A stretch of 11,125 bases of DNA, taken from the UHGV virus genome UHGV-0137787. One strand, given 5' to 3'. Under the pieces are notes generated by a model. The model worked only from the letters and a program-made list of their open reading frames with translations. It did no database searches and was not told the DNA's origin. The position numbers and the translations under genes are program-made. Source of the DNA: a virus. Below, piece after piece: positions 56-5,045 of this stretch; the stretch's first letter is position 1, and the number at the start of each line of letters is the position of its first letter.

Positions 56-1030
56 TTATCCGTTACCGCACGACGGTTTCTGCGTGATAAACGTCCCAAG
101 CATCTTTTCCGCGATTGCCGACCAGGTGTGACACTGGACCTTTTCAGCATTTTTCACGCGATCAACGCGAGCAATAACCTCATCCCAATCAATCCGCGAC
201 TTGATAACCATATGGTTCACCAAAGCCAGGCGATCTGGCGGAAGGCAATCGGGCGGCGTTAATATCAACGCCCCACACATTGCCGCCTCAAGAACAGTTA
301 ATCCAAGGCTTTCGGGATGCGTAACGATAAAAACGTCACTCTTACGCAATTCAGCTGCAAATTCGGTTGCTGGTACCGGCGTCCGTCTGTATGGAGTTAC
401 CGAAATATTCCCCGGATCAATGGTAACCAATCCGTCATCGGTCAACGTTCTGGCCTCATACGGAACAGTCAGACGCTGAAGGTTCATAAGGATACTTAAG
501 GAGTGATCAAACCCACTAACATCAAATGCAGCGTGGTCTACAAAAATACGCAGAACATCGTCTGTTTTGGTTTCCAGATGGAACAGCTCCTGATTCGCTG
601 CCCATCCAACATGTTTGTTAAAGCGATTATGACGCTCTAACCTGCCGGGATTATCCAGGTACCGCCAGGTATCATCGCGGACAGTAAAAGTAATATCAAC
701 TGGTGCCGAATCCAGCATAGAACCGTCGTATACCTGAGCTACCCATCCAGTGAATCGACGACGCAGTTGCACACCTATTTCCCTGGGCACCGTAGTAAAA
801 TACCGCAATCCTGGCGCTAAAATGGCTTTCGCAGAACACGAGAGCGCAGCGGTCAACACAGCTTCAACATAATCCTCCGGGCTTTCGACGCCAGGGGAAT
901 ATGGACGATGGTATTGCAATGTTACCCCTGCCTCACTAAAGGCGCAGGCCAGGTTATAAGCCCACATTTCCGTATATGTTTTCACATCACTGATGGCTTC
1001 AAATTTTCGCCCAATGATCAGGATGTTCAT
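56..1030 (-). CDS. GT-B fold glycosyltransferase-like protein (GT1/GT4-like C-terminal motif), 324 aa from the preferred start
   Basis: C-terminal segment HPESLGLTVLEAAMCGALILTPP resembles the GT-B E-x7-E donor-binding motif (EGFGLxxLEAMAxGxPV). Preferred ATG at 1028-1030 is preceded by GAGGA with a 7-nt spacer and gives N-terminus MNILIIGRK. An alternative upstream ATG at 1052-1054 overlaps the ban stop (TAATG). Confidence 0.6.
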   Translation of the reverse strand: MNILIIGRKFEAISDVKTYTEMWAYNLACAFSEAGVTLQYHRPYSPGVESPEDYVEAVLTAALSCSAKAILAPGLRYFTTVPREIGVQLRRRFTGWVAQVYDGSMLDSAPVDITFTVRDDTWRYLDNPGRLERHNRFNKHVGWAANQELFHLETKTDDVLRIFVDHAAFDVSGFDHSLSILMNLQRLTVPYEARTLTDDGLVTIDPGNISVTPYRRTPVPATEFAAELRKSDVFIVTHPESLGLTVLEAAMCGALILTPPDCLPPDRLALVNHMVIKSRIDWDEVIARVDRVKNAEKVQCHTWSAIAEKMLGTFITQKPSCGNG

Positions 1031-1053
1031 CGGCTTTTCCTCGTTCCATTGCA

Positions 1054-2418
1054 TTAATAATCCTCTTGCCAGTCAGCACCAGCATAGTTATCAAATCGTG
1101 AATACTGGCCGTTAAAAGCCAATCTCACCGTGCCAATTGGGCCATTTCGTTGCTTACCAATAATCACCTCGGCAATGCCCTTCATTTCGCTATCCGGGTG
1201 ATAAACCTCGTCGCGATACAGAAACATGATCAGGTCTGCGTCCTGTTCAATTGCTCCTGATTCGCGCAAATCTGAATTTACCGGTCGTTTGTCCGCACGC
1301 TGTTCAAGCGATCGATTAAGTTGTGACAATGCCACCACCGGTACTTGTAATTCCTTCGCTAACGCCTTCAGTGAGCGAGAAATCTCGGCAATTTCCAGCG
1401 TTCGGTTATCTTGCAGCTCGGGGACACGCATAAGTTGCAGGTAGTCGATCATAATCATGCTCAATCCACCATTTTCTTTATAAACACGACGAGCGCGGGA
1501 ACGTAGCTCTGTAGGCGTCAGGGCGCTTGAGTCATCAATAAAAATATTCTGCTTGTCCAACAGAATCCCCATTGCGCCAGAAACACGCGCCCAATCCTCG
1601 TCGTTAAGTTGCCCCGTTCTAATACGAGTCTGATCAACGCGTGCAAGAGAGGCCAGTGAGCGCATCACCAGCTGGTGGCTCGGCATCTCAAGGCTAAAAA
1701 CCAATACGGGCTTATCGCTACGGACTGCGGCATTTTCGACAAGATTCATCGCAAATGTGGTCTTCCCCATAGACGGGCGGGCGGCGACAATAATGAGATC
1801 GGACGGCTGAAGCCCAGCCGTCTTCTTATTGAGATCGGTAAACCCGGTATCAATCCCCGTTACACCATCATGCGGTCGCTGAAACAACTCTTCGATGCGA
1901 GATACCGTCGCATCAAGAACGCTGGCGATGTCTTTTGGTCCACTCCCGCTCTTTTGTCGTTTTTCAGCTATTTCAAAAACGCGGCGCTCGGCCATATCCA
2001 GCAATTCATTGCTGCCCCGGCCATCCTGCGCATATCCAGCTTCGGCTATTTCATTTGCGACGGAAATCATTTCGCGAACAACCGCGCGTTCACGAACGAT
2101 ATCCGCATAAGCACAAATATTTGCCGCGCTGGGCGTGTTCTTTGACATCTCCGCAAGGTACGCAAAACCACCTGCACGTTCTAATTTACCGTTCTGTTCA
2201 AGTGCTTCAGCAAGCGTTATCAAATCAATCGGTTTGCCATGACTTAATAACCTCTCCATCTCACTGAAAATTTCACGATGAGCACTGGTATAAAAATCAT
2301 CAGCGACTACACGATCTGCAACTTCATCCCAGCGGTAGTTATCAAGCATTAAGCCACCAAGTACAGCTTGTTCTGCACTAAGTGAATTTGGCATGGATTC
2401 AAGAGGGGATGCAGACAT
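1054..2418 (-). CDS. ban: Replicative DNA helicase of the DnaB family, phage-borne analogue (P1 Ban-like), 454 aa
   Basis: Collinear with E. coli DnaB as I recall it across the whole length (Walker A PSMGKTTFAMN, plus IDYLQLM, RPVNSDLRESGAIEQDADLIMF, GKQRNGPIGTVRL) but with many substitutions. ATG at 2416-2418 is preceded by GGAGGA with a 6-nt spacer; the six-frame ORF starts two codons further up at a GTG. Symbol given from family plus P1-like context. Confidence 0.9.
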   Translation of the reverse strand: MSASPLESMPNSLSAEQAVLGGLMLDNYRWDEVADRVVADDFYTSAHREIFSEMERLLSHGKPIDLITLAEALEQNGKLERAGGFAYLAEMSKNTPSAANICAYADIVRERAVVREMISVANEIAEAGYAQDGRGSNELLDMAERRVFEIAEKRQKSGSGPKDIASVLDATVSRIEELFQRPHDGVTGIDTGFTDLNKKTAGLQPSDLIIVAARPSMGKTTFAMNLVENAAVRSDKPVLVFSLEMPSHQLVMRSLASLARVDQTRIRTGQLNDEDWARVSGAMGILLDKQNIFIDDSSALTPTELRSRARRVYKENGGLSMIMIDYLQLMRVPELQDNRTLEIAEISRSLKALAKELQVPVVALSQLNRSLEQRADKRPVNSDLRESGAIEQDADLIMFLYRDEVYHPDSEMKGIAEVIIGKQRNGPIGTVRLAFNGQYSRFDNYAGADWQEDY

Positions 2419-2698
2419 TAGCACTCCTCCAAGGCGTGCTGAATGTCAGATATAATCGGCATACTCAAATCACTCCTAACGATATGAGTCATCACCAGAA
2501 AATCAGGATTAATTCGCCGGACTCTTCCCGGCTGTCACACCGAATCGCCAGGATGGTGAATCCGCAGTCCGACGCTATGAACGGGGCTTGCACATTCCGG
2601 CTACCTGGTTCGTTGCCTGAGCTAGGGGCAAGGTTCCCCCTTTAACGTCACCAGACCGCTAACGACGCATGTGCCAGACGCCGTGTTACAACCAAATG

Positions 2699-2774
2699 TG
2701 GTGGCCCCTACCGGACTTGAACCGGTGACCGTGCGATTATGAGTCGCCAGCTCTAACCACTGAGCTAAAGGGCC
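2699..2774 (-). tRNA. tRNA with CAU anticodon, closest to tRNA-Ile2 (lysidine type, ileX-like); an elongator Met identity is not excluded
   Basis: Hand-folded cloverleaf: acceptor GGCCCTT/AGGGGCC, D-arm GCTC-AGTGGTTA-GAGC, anticodon loop CTCATAA, T-arm ACCGG-TTCAAGT-CCGGT, encoded CCA. Starts 3 nt after the upstream ORF stop. Confidence 0.85.
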
Positions 2775-2777
2775 GGA

Positions 2778-2885
2778 TTACTGTTTACTAAGTGCTTCAA
2801 TGGCGCTAACAATGCCGCCTACAACTATGGCAACAATGATAATGAGAACAATTGGATACTTGTCAGCAAAATCCCAGAAGCCCAT
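2778..2885 (-). CDS. Mini membrane protein, 35 aa (MGFWDFADKYPIVLIIIVAIVVGGIVSAIEALSKQ), TciC-like position
   Basis: Found by manual translation (below the six-frame cutoff). Its ATG overlaps the stop of the upstream ORF (TGATG); single predicted transmembrane helix. Confidence 0.4.
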   Translation of the reverse strand: MGFWDFADKYPIVLIIIVAIVVGGIVSAIEALSKQ

Positions 2886-3049
2886 CACTGATCCTTCGAA
2901 GCTGTTTTAAATATCGGCCATACCAATGTTACAGCTACTGCTACCAACGCACCGTCGGATAAAACCGACAGGACTGTGCTGGTGAAATCCACCAGCACAG
3001 ATAGCACGAGAAAAACCAAAGCCAGAATTAGACGTGCTTTTATAACCAT
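2885..3049 (-). CDS. Mini membrane protein, 54 aa (MVIKARLILALVFLVLSVLVDFTSTVLSVLSDGALVAVAVTLVWPIFKTASKDQ), TciB-like position
   Basis: Found by manual translation. Its ATG overlaps the TGA stop of the TerB-like gene (TGATG); strongly hydrophobic, probably two transmembrane segments. Confidence 0.45.
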   Translation of the reverse strand: MVIKARLILALVFLVLSVLVDFTSTVLSVLSDGALVAVAVTLVWPIFKTASKDQ

Positions 3050-3474
3050 CAGATATACTGTTCCAGTGGCAATTGAAGAGCCTGGGCAATTTTCTTCAAT
3101 TGCTCCTGCTCTTCTGCCCCAATGCCATCCTGGTCAGCAATATCAATGCATAGGCACAGAACATCTACCGCATCATTAGTCCCGGACACATCAGCCAGCT
3201 CACGTAAAGCCTGGGCATTAGCTCGGCGCGGCGAGGCTTCATATTGAGCGCGAATATTGGCGCTCATCTGGGCAATTTCACCGGAGAACGGCGCAAAGGC
3301 AGGAAGTGCTGCAATGGTTTTTTCCAATACTGCAATTTCTTTCGCATCGCAGGTGCCGTCAGAGTATGCAATGGAATATGCGCCCCAGACGGTCGCTTCC
3401 ACCGCATCACGGTTTTCCATCTTCTTGACTCCGCCAGCCGCTTTGCGGAATTTCTTTTTGAGAATGCCGAGCAT
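3049..3474 (-). CDS. tciA: TerB-like tellurite-resistance family protein (P1 TciA-like), 141 aa
   Basis: Size and composition consistent with the TerB family; RBS GAGG 7 nt before the ATG. Symbol is tentative and rests on context (adjacent to ban and the tRNAs, as recalled for P1). Confidence 0.7.
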   Translation of the reverse strand: MLGILKKKFRKAAGGVKKMENRDAVEATVWGAYSIAYSDGTCDAKEIAVLEKTIAALPAFAPFSGEIAQMSANIRAQYEASPRRANAQALRELADVSGTNDAVDVLCLCIDIADQDGIGAEEQEQLKKIAQALQLPLEQYI

Positions 3475-3616
3475 TTATTAACCTCATTACTGGTTGGGAA
3501 ATAAGGTTGCGGTGCCGGGTGCCTCCCGGTGTCCTTTGGCTGGTTATCTACCGTGGACGGGGAAACAAGGAGAAATGAATGGACTGATATAACCATTTCC
3601 CCGCGTGCGCTTAGCC

Positions 3617-3693
3617 GCATTCACCGCAACGGAAAGAGCATTCTTGGTGGACCTGTAGATTGGGATATGAACCCGTTACAGGAGAATGCTCTT
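3617..3693. repeat. Hairpin module A: GCATTCACC lead, 11-bp perfect inverted repeat (3634-3644 / 3683-3693) enclosing the conserved motif GTAGATTGGGATATGAACCCGTTAC (3655-3679)
   Basis: Direct inspection; paralogous to module B. Confidence 0.55.
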
Positions 3694-3877
3694 ACCTGTT
3701 GCGTACTCCGTTTCATGGAGCTAACGGCGGGGGATCAGACCGCACCAGACTGGACTTATTTCAGCGTTATGCTCATGCCAGAGAATCAAACTGTGATGGT
3801 CGGTGCTGAACTCCGACACAGGGTTGTAGCAAGCCCCGCAAAGCGCGCACTACTGTAGTTGCGGCACATCAGCCTGT

Positions 3878-3977
3878 GCATTCACCACAATGTTGAGAAC
3901 ACTGGTTGTCACGCTGCAACGCAACATTTATTCGTAGATTGGGATATGACCCCGTTACGCCAGTGTTCTCAACGTTG
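3878..3977. repeat. Hairpin module B: GCATTCACC lead, 18-bp inverted repeat (3888-3905 / 3960-3977, one G-U-compatible mismatch) enclosing GTAGATTGGGATATGACCCCGTTAC (3934-3958)
   Basis: Direct inspection. Loop motif is 24/25 identical to module A, while the stem arms have a different sequence but still pair. Confidence 0.55.
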
Positions 3978-4124
3978 TAGTGCCGGTTACGGTTCCGGCC
4001 AGGCCTCTTCCTCAACGGGGTGTTCTCCATACGGACTACCGTTTATTGGTCGTTCCTGCGGTTTATGTTGTGAAGCCAGATGCTTATCTTCTGGTTGCTT
4101 CTAAGAGCTGCACTTCATCACAAC

Positions 4125-4198
4125 GGTAAGGGTACTTCGTAGGGATTCGAACCCTCTGCCAAGCACAGCGATCTCCGACGTCGCAAAATACCCTTACC
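4125..4198 (-). pseudogene. tRNA-like remnant or non-canonical tRNA-like element bounded by a 10-bp terminal inverted repeat
   Basis: Contains a canonical T-arm (AGGG-TTCGAAT-CCCT) and a D-arm-like hairpin (GCGA-CGTCGGAGA-TCGC), but I could not fold a canonical cloverleaf; ends are GGTAAGGGTA / TACCCTTACC. Sits 8 nt downstream of tRNA-Thr. Confidence 0.3.
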
Positions 4199-4206
4199 TG
4201 TTGTGT

Positions 4207-4282
4207 TGGTGCCGGTTAACGGACTCGAACCGCTGACATCCTGCTTACAAGGCAGGCGTTCTACCAACTGAGCTAAACCGGC
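4207..4282 (-). tRNA. tRNA-Thr (anticodon UGU)
   Basis: Hand-folded: acceptor GCCGGTT/AACCGGC, anticodon stem CCTGC/GCAGG with loop CTTGTAA, T-loop TTCGAGT, encoded CCA; one C-A mismatch in the D-stem. Confidence 0.85.
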
Positions 4283-4284
4283 AT

Positions 4285-4360
4285 TGGCGATGGAGGATGG
4301 ATTTGAACCATCGACCCGTTGATTAACAGTCAACCGCTCTAACCGCTGAGCTACACCATC
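4285..4360 (-). tRNA. tRNA-Asn (anticodon GUU)
   Basis: Hand-folded: D-arm GCTC-AGCGGTTA-GAGC, anticodon stem GTTGA/TCAAC with loop CTGTTAA, T-arm GATGG-TTCAAAT-CCATC, encoded CCA; one mismatch in the acceptor stem. Only 2 nt separate it from tRNA-Thr. Confidence 0.85.
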
Positions 4361-4825
4361 ACTTGCCGGGTACGTCTCCGGCGAGGGCTTCCACCTCCGT
4401 ATGCTTTTCGGCGCCCGCGCCCTGGCTGAAATTCGGTAACAGGGGATGCATAACCCTGGCTTCCAGCGTGATTAGCGCCTTCAGCATGACGGGATATACC
4501 CGTTACAAGAAATTATCCCAGGATGCCATTAAGCAATGGCTGTTACGCTGAATGAAAAAGGACGTAACAGGTAAGGACGCTGACCAAAGAGATGGCCCCT
4601 TCTCGCTCATCTGGTTAATCGAACCAGCGCCCTTGCCTGTTATGCCTCCCCGTTCCCTAATACACAGACGGGGACACTCTGCGGTCGATTTTTTGACGGG
4701 GGACGACTCATACCCCGTGGCGTCAGGCTTCTTAGGCCGCTACCATCATCAGATCATCGTTTGCATTTACTTTAATGGTCAGTTTATAAACCGCCGCAAA
4801 GTCGCTAACCATGACGAAAACCCTG

Positions 4826-4850
4826 AAAAAACGCCCACCCGAAGATGGGC
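4826..4850 (-). terminator. Intrinsic (Rho-independent) terminator on the minus strand
   Basis: Minus strand reads GCCCAUC-UUCG-GGUGGGC followed by G and six U: a 7-bp GC-rich stem with a UUCG tetraloop. The plus strand has no T-run, so it is unidirectional. Confidence 0.65.
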
Positions 4851-5017
4851 AAACTGGATGAACAGATCGTTAGGCATTTCGGTGTCGCCACTTAGGTGCA
4901 TGGTCAACCTGGCAACTCGGTGGCCATGTGGGCGGAGTAACCCAGCCATGCTTACCGCCGCGCCTATCGCGGGTAATAACTCAATCCGCTTTATAAATCC
5001 CGTTTCATTGAAACAAT

Positions 5018-5045
5018 ATTACTCTAATAAATTTATTAGAGCAAT
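5018..5045. promoter_or_regulatory. Palindromic pair of overlapping P1 C1-repressor operator-like 17-mers
   Basis: Minus-strand site at 5029-5045 reads ATTGCTCTAATAAATTT, 17/17 against the C1 operator consensus as I recall it; plus-strand site at 5018-5034 reads ATTACTCTAATAAATTT (16/17). Together they form the perfect palindrome CTCTAATAAATTTATTAGAG, which overlaps the dmt stop codon. Confidence 0.6.

What the first reader, a model, noticed from the sequence alone, without database searches (positions are those of the whole stretch)
2699..4360. Three tRNA genes (Ile-CAU, Thr-UGU, Asn-GUU) embedded in a single leftward operon with TerB-like and DnaB-like genes
The tRNAs are co-oriented and tightly packed with protein genes: Thr and Asn are 2 nt apart, and tRNA-Ile begins 3 nt after the preceding stop. 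They would therefore be excised from a polycistronic transcript. Phage-borne tRNAs are known in other systems to offset codon-usage differences or to replace host tRNAs cut by anticodon nucleases and tRNA-targeting toxins. Asn-GUU in particular belongs to the queuosine family targeted by colicin E5-type nucleases. Linkage to genes I recall being named tci (tellurite/colicin resistance, inhibition of cell division) makes a counter-defence role plausible but unproven.
Basis: partly seen in the sequence, partly recalled or inferred. Interest (0 to 1): 0.55.

Follow-up and report, generated by a model that had tools for sequence, protein, structure and literature searches.

The report
Known phage P1 ban-operon tRNA genes
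These are the three long-annotated tRNA genes (Asn, Thr, Ile) of a phage P1-like plasmid prophage, inside the repressor-controlled ban operon; they are ordinary, but two of them read the same codons as host tRNAs that recently described anti-phage nucleases destroy.

Summary
ARAGORN and Rfam find three co-oriented minus-strand tRNA genes at exactly the stated coordinates: CAU 2699-2774, Thr-UGU 4207-4282, Asn-GUU 4285-4360. The spacings are as stated, 2 nt and 3 nt.

The window is a P1-like phage-plasmid, 95.7% identical to phage P1. The GenBank record for P1 already annotates this same arrangement as the C1-controlled ban operon. About 1000 of 5426 complete E. coli genomes match this segment, 169 of them over most of its length.

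Codon supply is supported. P1 genes use AUA 2.4 times, ACA 1.6 times and AAU 1.3 times more than sampled E. coli K-12 genes (ranks 2, 6 and 15 of 61 codons).

- The Asn anticodon loop is identical to the host's and keeps the colicin E5 determinant.
- Relatives replace tciABC with an SPFH gene, or lack tci altogether, yet keep the tRNAs.

A better counter-defence candidate comes from 2025 papers. PARIS AriB and P2 OLD cleave host tRNA-Thr(UGU), and AriB also counts Asn(GUU) as a secondary target. The P1-type tRNA-Thr carries G39 at the AriB site, as T5's does. However, its Asn keeps that site, its Thr keeps the OLD motif, and P1 has no tRNA-Lys.

Verdict: already known, low interest.

The parts
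5018..5045 (-). Bivalent C1 repressor operator Op72 (Obanab), overlapping promoter Pban at the 3' end of dmt; start of the ban operon
   Evidence: Two overlapping matches to ATTGCTCTAATAAATTT (0 and 1 mismatch), 0.04 expected by chance. Same position as Obanab/P1ban in P1 AF234172.
4832..4851 (-). Terminator-like GC hairpin followed by T6, inside the stretch P1 annotates as 'dicF-like region'. Must be read through for the operon to work.
   Evidence: Terminator scan. Conserved in P1 and D6. The Rfam DicF model does not match.
4556..4645 (-). Long near-perfect hairpin in the leader, upstream of tRNA-Asn; candidate processing site
   Evidence: MFE -36.4 kcal/mol, z = -3.6.
4285..4360 (-). tRNA-Asn (GUU), CCA encoded; private U6.U67 mismatch
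4207..4282 (-). tRNA-Thr (UGU), CCA encoded; private C11.A24 mismatch; C31-G39 pair (UAAGCA at nt 36-41)
3622..4206 (-). Spacer between tRNA-Thr and the tciA leader, with three long hairpins (4112-4206, 3875-3990, 3622-3705). Probably non-coding. D6 carries a tRNA-Ser(UGA) in the equivalent spacer.
   Evidence: z = -4.9, -6.2 and -7.2; repeats D2/D3/D6 and I1/I7. PGAP annotates no gene here in a 98% identical plasmid. P1's plus-strand ORF plp is truncated in the window.
3508..3628 (-). STnc100-like structured RNA directly 5' of tciA (below the Rfam threshold)
   Evidence: 36.5 bits against gathering score 47, E = 1.2e-5. Also present in front of tciA in D6 and in front of the SPFH gene in relatives.
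3049..3474 (-). tciA, TerB-domain protein (141 aa)
   Evidence: PF05099, 28.4 bits; P1 annotation.
2885..3049 (-). tciB, DUF3927 small membrane protein (54 aa)
   Evidence: PF13064, 101 bits.
2778..2885 (-). tciC, 35-codon hydrophobic ORF; its stop lies 3 nt before tRNA-Ile
   Evidence: Sequence; P1 annotation; no Pfam match.
2699..2774 (-). tRNA-Ile2 type (CAU, ileX-like), CCA encoded; identical to P1 trnI
2522..2690 (-). Conserved non-coding element of about 165 nt between tRNA-Ile and ban; function unknown
   Evidence: Aligned with P1, D6 and lambdoid phage TL-2011b; no Rfam match.
1054..2418 (-). ban, DnaB-type replicative helicase
   Evidence: Pfam DnaB_C 361 bits and DnaB 121 bits; P1 annotation. 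ATG at 2418 preceded by GGAGGA.
56..1054 (-). dbn, possible glycosyltransferase; last gene of the operon
   Evidence: P1 annotation; weak Glycos_transf_1 match, below cut-off.

Best explanation
This is the ban operon of a phage P1-like plasmid prophage (genus Punavirus). Its three tRNA genes are the known P1 genes for tRNA-Asn(GUU), tRNA-Thr(UGU) and tRNA-Ile2(CAU).

In the lysogen, the C1 repressor sits on the bivalent operator Op72 and keeps the operon off. On infection or induction, one leftward transcript runs from Pban through a structured leader, tRNA-Asn, tRNA-Thr, tciABC, tRNA-Ile, ban and dbn. Host RNase P and 3'-end processing enzymes cut the tRNAs out; the CCA ends are already encoded.

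The most likely main function is extra decoding capacity during lytic growth. The codons concerned are read by scarce host tRNAs and are used more often by the phage: AUA (Ile2), ACA (Thr-UGU) and, more weakly, AAU/AAC (Asn). The neighbouring tci genes are interchangeable cargo, not functional partners of the tRNAs.

Shown: identity, anatomy, conservation, operator, codon bias. Inferred: processing, aminoacylation, lysidine modification of C34, and any benefit to the phage.
For: - Identity with P1: 95.7% over 93% of the window, with the same gene order as annotated in AF234172.
- Prevalence: matches in 1005 of 5426 complete E. coli genomes and in 795 plasmid records.
- C1 operators are found at Op72 and Op68 only. 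ban is C1-controlled and induced in the lytic cycle (PMC4713147). P1 trnA and trnI are reported as transcripts in P1vir RNA-seq.
- Codon usage, 90 P1 CDS (25,621 codons) against 94 E. coli K-12 ORFs (31,344 codons), per thousand codons: ATA 11.8 vs 5.0 (rank 2 of 61 by ratio), ACA 14.8 vs 9.1 (rank 6), AAT 24.9 vs 19.6 (rank 15).
- In P1 late genes ATA, ACA and AAT are 9.8, 15.2 and 25.5 per thousand. In the host ribosomal-protein cluster they are 0.3, 4.5 and 5.2.
- Rank-sum probability is 0.0066 using AAT and 0.041 using AAC.
- D6's extra tRNA-Ser(UGA) reads TCA, which ranks 5. Adding it lowers the probability to 0.001.
- T4 carries the same Ile(CAU)/Thr(UGU)/Ser(UGA) set.
- The tRNAs persist when tciABC is replaced by an SPFH gene and occur without tci in Cyrano.
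Against: - AGG and AGA are as enriched in P1 as AUA (ranks 1 and 3), yet P1 has no tRNA-Arg(UCU).
- Asn codons are only weakly enriched; AAC ranks 32.
- AUA is not enriched in the genes of this window (5.9 per thousand), and in P1 it is higher in non-late genes (15.6) than in late genes (9.8).
- The host sample is only about 120 kb of K-12.
- tRNA-Thr and tRNA-Asn are strongly diverged from the host genes (79% and 62% identity), with most changes in the stems including the anticodon stem. Codon supply alone does not require this.
- A terminator-like hairpin lies between Pban and the tRNAs.
- No experiment on the function of the P1 tRNAs was found in the searchable literature.
Confidence: 0.6

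Rival explanations
1. [quoted passage not shown] It would replace, or compete with, host tRNAs cleaved in the anticodon stem by Toprim tRNases carried by rival mobile elements of E. coli: PARIS AriB on P4-like satellites and OLD of prophage P2. That would keep P1 translation running after those systems fire. This is compatible with codon supply; the two may operate together.
For: [quoted passage not shown] A U39A change abolishes cleavage of tRNA-Lys. The T5 Lys, Thr and Asn variants together neutralise PARIS (PMC12409363).
- The primary lethal target of P2 OLD is tRNA-Thr(UGU), and phage tRNA-Thr(UGU) genes rescue cells (PMC12445682).
- The P1-type tRNA-Thr reads UAAGCA at nt 36-41. This is identical to T5's tRNA-Thr and differs from host thrU (UAAUCA) exactly at position 39. 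T4's tRNA-Thr is changed at position 40.
- The P1-type tRNA-Asn has lost both CNG motifs that OLD uses (UUG/CAA against host CGG/CCG).
- The Cyrano homologue of tRNA-Asn has C39.
- The Asn-Thr pair travels as a unit among P1-like, D6-like and Cyrano-like temperate phages.
Against: - P1 has no tRNA-Lys(UUU), which was required to bypass B185 PARIS.
- The P1 tRNA-Asn keeps UAAUC|A, AriB's best-cleaved local site (the sequence in host tRNA-Lys and thrU). Locally it looks at least as cleavable as host tRNA-Asn (UAAUC|C).
- The P1 tRNA-Thr keeps both CNG motifs (CUG/CAG) and a full 5-bp stem. OLD resistance needed both an altered motif and a shortened stem.
- tRNA-Ile2 is not among the AriB or OLD targets described in the sections read of the two Toprim-nuclease papers.
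- No P1-specific test was found.
- Resistance is judged from sequence motifs only, and AriB also reads distal features.
Confidence: 0.3
2. One reading: the tRNAs act together with the tci genes against colicin E5-type anticodon nucleases that target the queuosine-family tRNAs.
For: Colicin E5 does cleave tRNA-Asn (PMC1635277). The gene name tci refers to tellurite or colicin resistance, assigned by homology only.
Against: - The phage tRNA-Asn anticodon loop is identical to the host's and keeps the YGU determinant.
- tRNA-Asn is the poorest of the four E5 substrates, and the phage has no Tyr, His or Asp tRNA.
- tciABC is replaced by an SPFH gene in relatives that keep the tRNAs.
- The tRNA array occurs without tci in Cyrano.
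- Only a TerB-like domain is present, and there is no PADLOC match.
Confidence: 0.04
3. The tRNAs serve mainly as RNA punctuation. RNase P cleavage at tRNA-Ile (3 nt after tciC) and at the Asn-Thr pair would cut the long transcript into separately stable pieces, setting the relative expression of the leader RNAs, tciABC and ban-dbn.
For: Very tight packing. The tRNAs are flanked by long near-perfect hairpins typical of RNase III substrates. tRNA-Ile sits exactly at the boundary between the swappable cargo (tci or SPFH) and ban in all relatives examined.
Against: Punctuation does not need three specific, conserved anticodons that match phage-enriched codons. It also does not need encoded CCA ends or identity elements of the ileX type. 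The same tRNAs occur in arrays without flanking mRNAs in Cyrano.
Confidence: 0.05
4. The tRNA genes are non-functional relics, for example remnants of old attachment sites or decaying captured genes.
For: This window's Thr and Asn copies each carry a private stem mismatch. The substitution rate in the tRNAs (3 in 228 nt, 1.3%) is no lower than in the neighbouring tci genes (1.4-2.4%).
Against: They are full-length cloverleafs scoring 65-71 bits with CCA ends. Their sequences are nearly invariant across P1, P7, D6 and SPFH-type relatives, although the flanking cargo differs. They are reported as transcripts in P1vir.
Confidence: 0.03

Closest known systems
Bacteriophage P1 ban operon (GenBank AF234172 / NC_005856): Pban-Op72, tRNA-Asn, tRNA-Thr, tciA, tciB, tciC, trnI, ban, dbn
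   Same: Same gene order, strand and spacing. 95.7% nucleotide identity. tRNA-Ile identical; Thr differs at 2 nt and Asn at 1 nt. Op72 and Op68 operators are present.
   Different: About 2% private substitutions throughout, including one stem mismatch each in Thr and Asn. More divergence around Pban and the 'dicF-like' leader and in the Ile-ban spacer. The dmt ORF has a different length. The best match in any collection searched is 98.1%.
tRNA arrays of other enterobacterial temperate phage-plasmids: D6 (MF356679) and D6-like plasmids, and phage Cyrano (OV696614)
   Same: Same Asn(GUU)-Thr(UGU) pair 2 nt apart, with near-identical sequences. D6 also has the same leader, tciA/B and tRNA-Ile.
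   Different: D6 and Cyrano add tRNA-Ser(UGA). In D6 the cassette sits next to lpa/pacA rather than ban. Cyrano has no tci genes beside the array. Some P1-like and D6-like plasmids carry an SPFH gene instead of tciABC.
Nuclease-evading tRNAs of virulent coliphages: T5 tRNA-Lys/Thr/Asn against PARIS AriB, and phage tRNA-Thr(UGU) against P2 OLD
   Same: Same anticodons for two of the three (Thr UGU, Asn GUU). The P1-type tRNA-Thr has the same nt 36-41 (UAAGCA) as T5's.
   Different: No tRNA-Lys(UUU). The P1 Asn keeps the AriB site. The P1 Thr keeps the OLD CNG motifs and a full stem. The tRNAs are carried by a temperate phage-plasmid under repressor control, not in a large array with its own strong promoters. 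There is no experimental test.
tRNA genes of T4 (Ile-CAU, Thr-UGU, Ser-UGA, Arg-UCU and others) and rare-codon tRNAs of lambdoid prophages such as the tRNA-Arg(UCU) of TL-2011b
   Same: tRNAs for AUA, ACA and UCA embedded in phage transcription units and processed from longer transcripts (processing is established knowledge for T4). The conserved element downstream of P1-type tRNA-Ile is also found beside a tRNA-Arg(UCU) in lambdoid phage TL-2011b.
   Different: Different tRNA sequences and operon context. P1 lacks the Arg(UCU) tRNA, although AGA and AGG are its most over-used codons.

Membership tests
Punavirus (P1-like) ban operon | C1-controlled bivalent operator Op72 with Pban at the 3' end of dmt | tested here: met
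   Operator matches at 5018-5034 and 5029-5045, with 0.04 expected by chance; same place as Obanab in P1.
Punavirus (P1-like) ban operon | Gene order tRNA-Asn, tRNA-Thr, tciA, tciB, tciC, trnI, ban, dbn on one strand, with high nucleotide identity to P1 | tested here: met
   95.7% identity and identical order and spacing.
tRNA (Rfam RF00005) | Cloverleaf match above the gathering score | tested here: met
   70.8, 66.1 and 64.7 bits against 29; ARAGORN agrees.
tRNA-Ile2 (ileX type, lysidine at position 34, reads AUA) | CAU anticodon with ileX-like body: acceptor pairs C4-G69 and C5-G68 (TilS determinants, recalled from memory) and ileX-like anticodon stem, unlike elongator tRNA-Met | tested here: met
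   89% identical to ileX. Acceptor GGCCC/GGGCC and anticodon stem GGCGA/UCGC as in ileX; metT has GGCUA and CAUCA. PGAP and the P1 record call it tRNA-Ile.
tRNA-Ile2 (ileX type, lysidine at position 34, reads AUA) | C34 actually converted to lysidine and the tRNA charged with isoleucine | not testable with these tools
   Needs tRNA mass spectrometry or an aminoacylation assay.
TerB family (PF05099) | Match above the Pfam gathering score | tested here: met
   TciA scores 28.4 bits against 24.4, but only residues 11-57 align to profile positions 60-106.
ter-type tellurite / colicin / phage resistance operon (terZABCDE) | TerC, TerD/TerE/TerZ partners alongside TerB | tested here: not met
   The only other products are DUF3927 (TciB) and a 35-aa peptide with no Pfam match. 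No PADLOC match. Relatives replace the block with an SPFH gene.
Phage tRNAs that evade PARIS AriB | Same anticodon as an AriB target (Lys UUU, Thr UGU, Asn GUU) | tested here: met
   Thr UGU and Asn GUU are present. Lys UUU is absent from the window and from the whole P1 genome (PMC12409363).
Phage tRNAs that evade PARIS AriB | Substitution at or next to the cleavage site U36AAUC|A41 | tested here: inconclusive
   Thr has UAAGCA (G39, as in T5): met. Asn has UAAUCA: not met. Actual resistance was not measured.
Phage tRNA-Thr(UGU) that resists P2 OLD | Altered CNG motifs (nt 28-30 and 40-42) together with a shortened anticodon stem | tested here: not met
   The P1-type Thr keeps CUG/CAG and five Watson-Crick pairs (criteria from PMC12445682).
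Colicin E5-insensitive tRNA | Loss of the YGUN determinant at positions 33-36 | tested here: not met
   The loop CUGUUAA is identical to host asnT; determinant from PMC1635277.
DicF sRNA (Rfam RF00039), for P1's 'dicF-like region' | Match to the covariance model | tested here: not met
   No DicF hit at E-value up to 5 in 2300-5200.
STnc100 sRNA (Rfam RF02076) | Match above the gathering score | tested here: inconclusive
   36.5 bits against 47, E = 1.2e-5, model positions 31-147 of 206. 37.8-40.4 bits in relatives.

The most novel reading that the evidence does not exclude
The Asn(GUU)-Thr(UGU) gene pair shared by P1-like, D6-like and Cyrano-like temperate phage-plasmids is a portable countermeasure against Toprim tRNases (PARIS AriB, P2 OLD) encoded by competing prophages and satellites of the same hosts. 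It would be switched on only when the C1 repressor is lifted. The G39 change in tRNA-Thr and the loss of the CNG motifs in tRNA-Asn would then be evasion mutations. That would extend tRNA-based anti-defence from large virulent phages to repressor-controlled temperate elements that carry only two or three tRNAs.
Probability: 0.3. Interest if true: 0.5.

Novelty: already known. Interest (0 to 1): 0.2.

Why it matters
As an observation it adds nothing. The genes, their order and their repressor control are in P1's GenBank annotation, and NCBI annotates the same tRNAs in other E. coli plasmids.

The useful outcome is a sharper and cheap-to-test question. Do the two or three tRNAs of the P1 family help only with rare codons? 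Or do the Thr(UGU)/Asn(GUU) pair also protect against the tRNA-cutting Toprim nucleases of P2 and P4-type elements, which share hosts with P1?

P1 is genetically tractable and widely used for transduction. A host-range effect of these tRNAs would therefore have practical as well as conceptual value.

Tried and rejected
- Colicin E5 evasion: rejected. The anticodon loop is identical to the host's and the YGUN determinant is kept.
- Functional coupling of the tRNAs to the tci genes: rejected. There are SPFH-for-tci swaps and a tci-less array in Cyrano, and no PADLOC match.
- OLD resistance of the P1 tRNA-Thr by the published two-factor rule: not met.
- P1's 'dicF-like' label: no Rfam DicF match.
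- Independent promoters for the tRNAs: the consensus scan found one weak site inside tciB/tciC, fewer than expected by chance. The scan also misses Pban itself, so it is uninformative.
- Stronger-than-background conservation of the tRNAs between window and P1: not seen (1.3% against 1.4-2.4% in neighbouring genes).
- The 2004 P1 genome paper is not held in the library. No open paper on 'ban operon' or on P1 tested against PARIS was found.
- The supplement of the OLD paper, which lists the 245-tRNA library, is not held. I could not check whether a P1 tRNA was in that screen.
- The structure prediction, remote protein homology and metagenome tools were not used. The identity of the locus was settled by nucleotide similarity.
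Full report

Yes. ARAGORN finds exactly three tRNA genes in the window, all on the minus strand: 2699-2774 (anticodon CAT), 4207-4282 (Thr TGT) and 4285-4360 (Asn GTT). Rfam's tRNA model matches the same places at 64.7-70.8 bits against a gathering score of 29.

The sequence shows two bases between Asn and Thr. It shows three bases (TCC) between the TAA stop of a 35-codon ORF and the first base of the CAT tRNA. All three genes encode their CCA end.

The flanking proteins are as described. They are a TerB-domain protein, a DUF3927 peptide and a DnaB-type helicase with strong Pfam matches.

**2. What is it?**

The window is a phage P1-like plasmid prophage. It aligns with P1 (AF234172 / NC_005856) at 95.7% identity over 93% of its length, and with P7, RCS47, SJ46 and others.

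P1's GenBank record annotates the same features in the same order and spacing. Promoter Pban with the bivalent C1 operator Obanab (former Op72) lies at the 3' end of dmt. It is followed by a 'dicF-like region', tRNA-Asn, tRNA-Thr, tciA, tciB, tciC, trnI ('tRNA-ile2 (CAT), 89 pct identical to ileX'), ban and dbn.

In the window the C1 operator consensus occurs three times against 0.04 expected. Two matches overlap at 5018-5045 (Op72) and one is at 8827-8843 (Op68, upstream of dmt). Because no other operator lies upstream of ban, ban can only be C1-controlled if it is transcribed from Pban. P1's record states that Op72 controls ban, and RT-qPCR work treats ban as C1-controlled and induced in the lytic cycle (PMC4713147). 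Transcription from Pban must therefore pass through the tRNAs and the tci genes.

The segment is common:
- 795 plasmid records match it.
- 1005 of 5426 complete E. coli genomes match it, 169 of them over most of the query, and PGAP annotates 'tRNA-Asn, tRNA-Thr, tRNA-Ile' in the listed best-matching records.
- Published plasmid descriptions list the same three tRNAs (PMC5786510 and PMC6799933).

The finding is therefore a rediscovery of a known, annotated operon.

**3. Identity of the CAT tRNA**

ARAGORN labels it Met by anticodon, but it is of the ileX type. It is identical to P1 trnI and 89% identical to E. coli ileX. It shares ileX's acceptor pairs 1-5 and anticodon stem, whereas elongator metT differs at both. 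Whether C34 is converted to lysidine cannot be tested here.

**4. State of the genes in this particular element**

Compared with P1, D6, two SPFH-type relatives and a 98% identical plasmid, this window has private changes:
- G24A in tRNA-Thr, giving a C11.A24 mismatch in the D stem.
- T68C in tRNA-Thr, turning G5.U68 into G5-C68.
- A67T in tRNA-Asn, giving a U6.U67 mismatch in the acceptor stem.

Private substitutions are spread evenly over the region. They amount to 1.3% in the tRNAs and 1.4-2.4% in tciA, tciB and the spacer. This comparison therefore shows neither special constraint nor special decay.

**5. Test of the codon-usage idea**

I compared 90 annotated P1 coding sequences (OP279344; 25,621 codons) with 94 ORFs from about 120 kb of E. 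coli K-12 (31,344 codons).

| Codon | Read by | P1 (per thousand) | E. coli (per thousand) | Ratio | Rank of 61 |
|---|---|---|---|---|---|
| AUA | tRNA-Ile2(CAU) | 11.8 | 5.0 | 2.4 | 2 |
| ACA | tRNA-Thr(UGU) | 14.8 | 9.1 | 1.6 | 6 |
| AAU | tRNA-Asn(GUU) | 24.9 | 19.6 | 1.3 | 15 |
| AAC | tRNA-Asn(GUU) | 22.8 | 22.1 | 1.0 | 32 |

P1 late genes alone give 9.8, 15.2 and 25.5 per thousand for AUA, ACA and AAU. The host ribosomal-protein cluster gives 0.3, 4.5 and 5.2.

Three random codons would rank this high with probability 0.0066 using AAU, or 0.041 using AAC. UCA, read by the extra tRNA-Ser(UGA) of D6 and Cyrano, ranks 5. Adding it lowers the probability to 0.001.

Points that do not fit:
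- AGG and AGA rank 1 and 3, yet P1 has no tRNA-Arg. A scan of the whole P1 genome finds only the three tRNAs.
- The Asn signal is weak.
- AUA is not enriched in the genes of this window.

**6.

Colicin E5 needs YGUN at positions 33-36 and cuts G34/U35 (PMC1635277). The phage tRNA-Asn has the same loop as host asnT (CUGUUAA), so nothing suggests that it escapes E5.

The tci link also fails:
- P1-like plasmid p12579_1 and a D6-like plasmid carry an SPFH-domain gene in place of tciABC. It sits behind the same STnc100-like leader and in front of the same tRNA-Ile, and these plasmids keep all the tRNAs.
- D6 carries the whole tRNA-tci cassette in a different genomic neighbourhood.
- Phage Cyrano has a tight Asn-Thr-Ser array with no tci gene nearby.
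- TciA, TciB and TciC match no PADLOC defence model.
- Only a partial TerB domain links them to tellurite resistance.

The tci slot looks like interchangeable cargo.

**7. A better-founded counter-defence candidate**

Two 2025 papers give more specific candidates than colicin E5.

[quoted passage not shown] It cuts between nt 40 and 41 within U36AAUC|A41. A U39A change abolishes cleavage of tRNA-Lys. The T5 Lys, Thr and Asn variants together neutralise PARIS (PMC12409363).

P2 OLD kills mainly by cutting tRNA-Thr(UGU) at paired CNG motifs (nt 28-30 and 40-42). Phage tRNA-Thr(UGU) genes rescue cells. Resistance needed both an altered motif and a shortened stem (PMC12445682).

I compared the anticodon arms.

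| tRNA | nt 36-41 | nt 28-30 / 40-42 (OLD CNG positions) | Note |
|---|---|---|---|
| Host thrU | UAAUCA | CUG / CAG | AriB and OLD target |
| T5 tRNA-Thr | UAAGCA | UUG / CAU | changed at position 39 |
| T4 tRNA-Thr | UAAUGA | CUC / GAG | changed at position 40 |
| P1-type tRNA-Thr | UAAGCA | CUG / CAG | identical to T5 at nt 36-41; full 5-bp stem |
| Host asnT | UAAUCC | CGG / CCG | secondary AriB target |
| P1-type tRNA-Asn | UAAUCA | UUG / CAA | AriB site kept; both CNG motifs lost |

The P1-type tRNA-Thr therefore looks AriB-evading but not OLD-evading by the published rule. The P1-type tRNA-Asn looks the reverse. P1 also lacks the tRNA-Lys that B185 PARIS bypass required.

The evidence is mixed and rests on motifs only. 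AriB also reads features outside the anticodon arm. I found no experiment with P1.

**8. Most likely mechanism**

On C1 derepression, one leftward transcript from Pban carries the leader RNAs, the Asn-Thr pair, the cargo genes, tRNA-Ile, ban and dbn. Host RNase P and 3' processing enzymes release the tRNAs.

The main benefit is probably extra capacity for AUA and ACA, which E. coli decodes with minor tRNAs (established knowledge), and for Asn codons. A secondary role of the Thr/Asn pair against Toprim tRNases is plausible. I put it at about 0.3 as a significant function, and it does not exclude codon supply.

One complication is a terminator-like hairpin with a T6 tail at 4832-4851, between Pban and the tRNAs. 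It is conserved in P1 and D6. It must be partly read through, because ban is C1-controlled.

**9. Novelty and score**

This is already known. The coordinates, identities, operon context and naming are all in public annotation. The general ideas of codon compensation and of tRNA-based evasion of tRNases are published.

The only new element is the specific, untested suggestion that the P1-family Thr/Asn pair relates to PARIS or OLD. Overall interest is 0.2. If that suggestion were confirmed, interest would be about 0.5.

Noticed in passing
window 2522-2690 (sense on the minus strand); L015 2501-2663: A conserved non-coding element of about 165 nt lies directly downstream of tRNA-Ile. It is shared with P1, D6 and lambdoid phage TL-2011b (81.7% identity), where it lies beside a tRNA-Arg(UCU). 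It matches no Rfam family, and its predicted folding energy is no better than that of shuffled sequence.
   Followed up: partly
window 4556-4645, 4112-4206, 3875-3990, 3622-3705 (minus strand): Four long near-perfect hairpins (z = -3.6 to -7.2) have related stem bases (ACAGGYAAGRG...). They flank the Asn-Thr pair and fill the Thr-tciA spacer. One contains a T-arm-like GAGGGTTCGAATCCCTAC. They may be RNase III sites or decayed tRNA-like elements.
   Followed up: partly
window 3529-3858 and 3859-4104 (plus strand): P1's annotated plus-strand ORFs upl and plp overlie these hairpins. In P1, plp overlaps tRNA-Thr. In the window the plp ORF is cut short (81 aa against 125 aa). PGAP calls no gene here in a 98% identical plasmid, and neither ORF has a Pfam match. 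They are probably not genes.
   Followed up: partly
window 3508-3628 (minus strand): An STnc100-like structured RNA (36.5 bits, below the Rfam cut-off of 47) lies immediately 5' of tciA. The same element precedes tciA in D6 and the SPFH gene in relatives that lack tci. Its terminal hairpin shows a compensatory change between the window (CCGGG/CCCGG) and D6 (CCTGG/CCAGG). A 2026 preprint links STnc100/Pas sRNAs with TerB genes and tRNAs in Stx prophages.
   Followed up: partly
window 4832-4851 (minus strand), within about 4816-4917: A terminator-like hairpin with a T6 tail lies about 190 nt downstream of Pban, inside what P1 annotates as a 'dicF-like region'. The Rfam DicF model does not match. 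It could define a short sRNA expressed from Pban.
   Followed up: partly
L003 1909-2736; L004 1915-2742: Some P1-like and D6-like plasmids carry an SPFH/Band-7 domain gene in exactly the slot occupied by tciABC here, between the STnc100-like leader and tRNA-Ile. The slot behaves as a cargo-exchange site.
   Followed up: partly
window 5036-7576 (minus strand): The dmt methyltransferase ORF, which has both C5-cytosine and N6-adenine domains, is 846 aa here. It is 754 aa in AF234172 and 1013 aa in a 2022 P1 resequencing record (OP279344). Its length is variable among P1 relatives.
   Followed up: no
whole window compared: No record in the phage, plasmid or complete E. coli genome collections exceeds 98.1% identity to the tRNA-tci segment. 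The window carries about 2% private substitutions spread evenly, so it comes from a lineage not represented in those collections.
   Followed up: no
L002 4246-4332; L014 3412-3498: The tRNA-Ser(UGA) of D6 and Cyrano is called tRNA-Ser by ARAGORN. In Rfam its best match is the tRNA-Sec model, just below threshold (43-45 bits against 47). The D6 record notes that tRNAscan-SE did not assign an amino acid.
   Followed up: no
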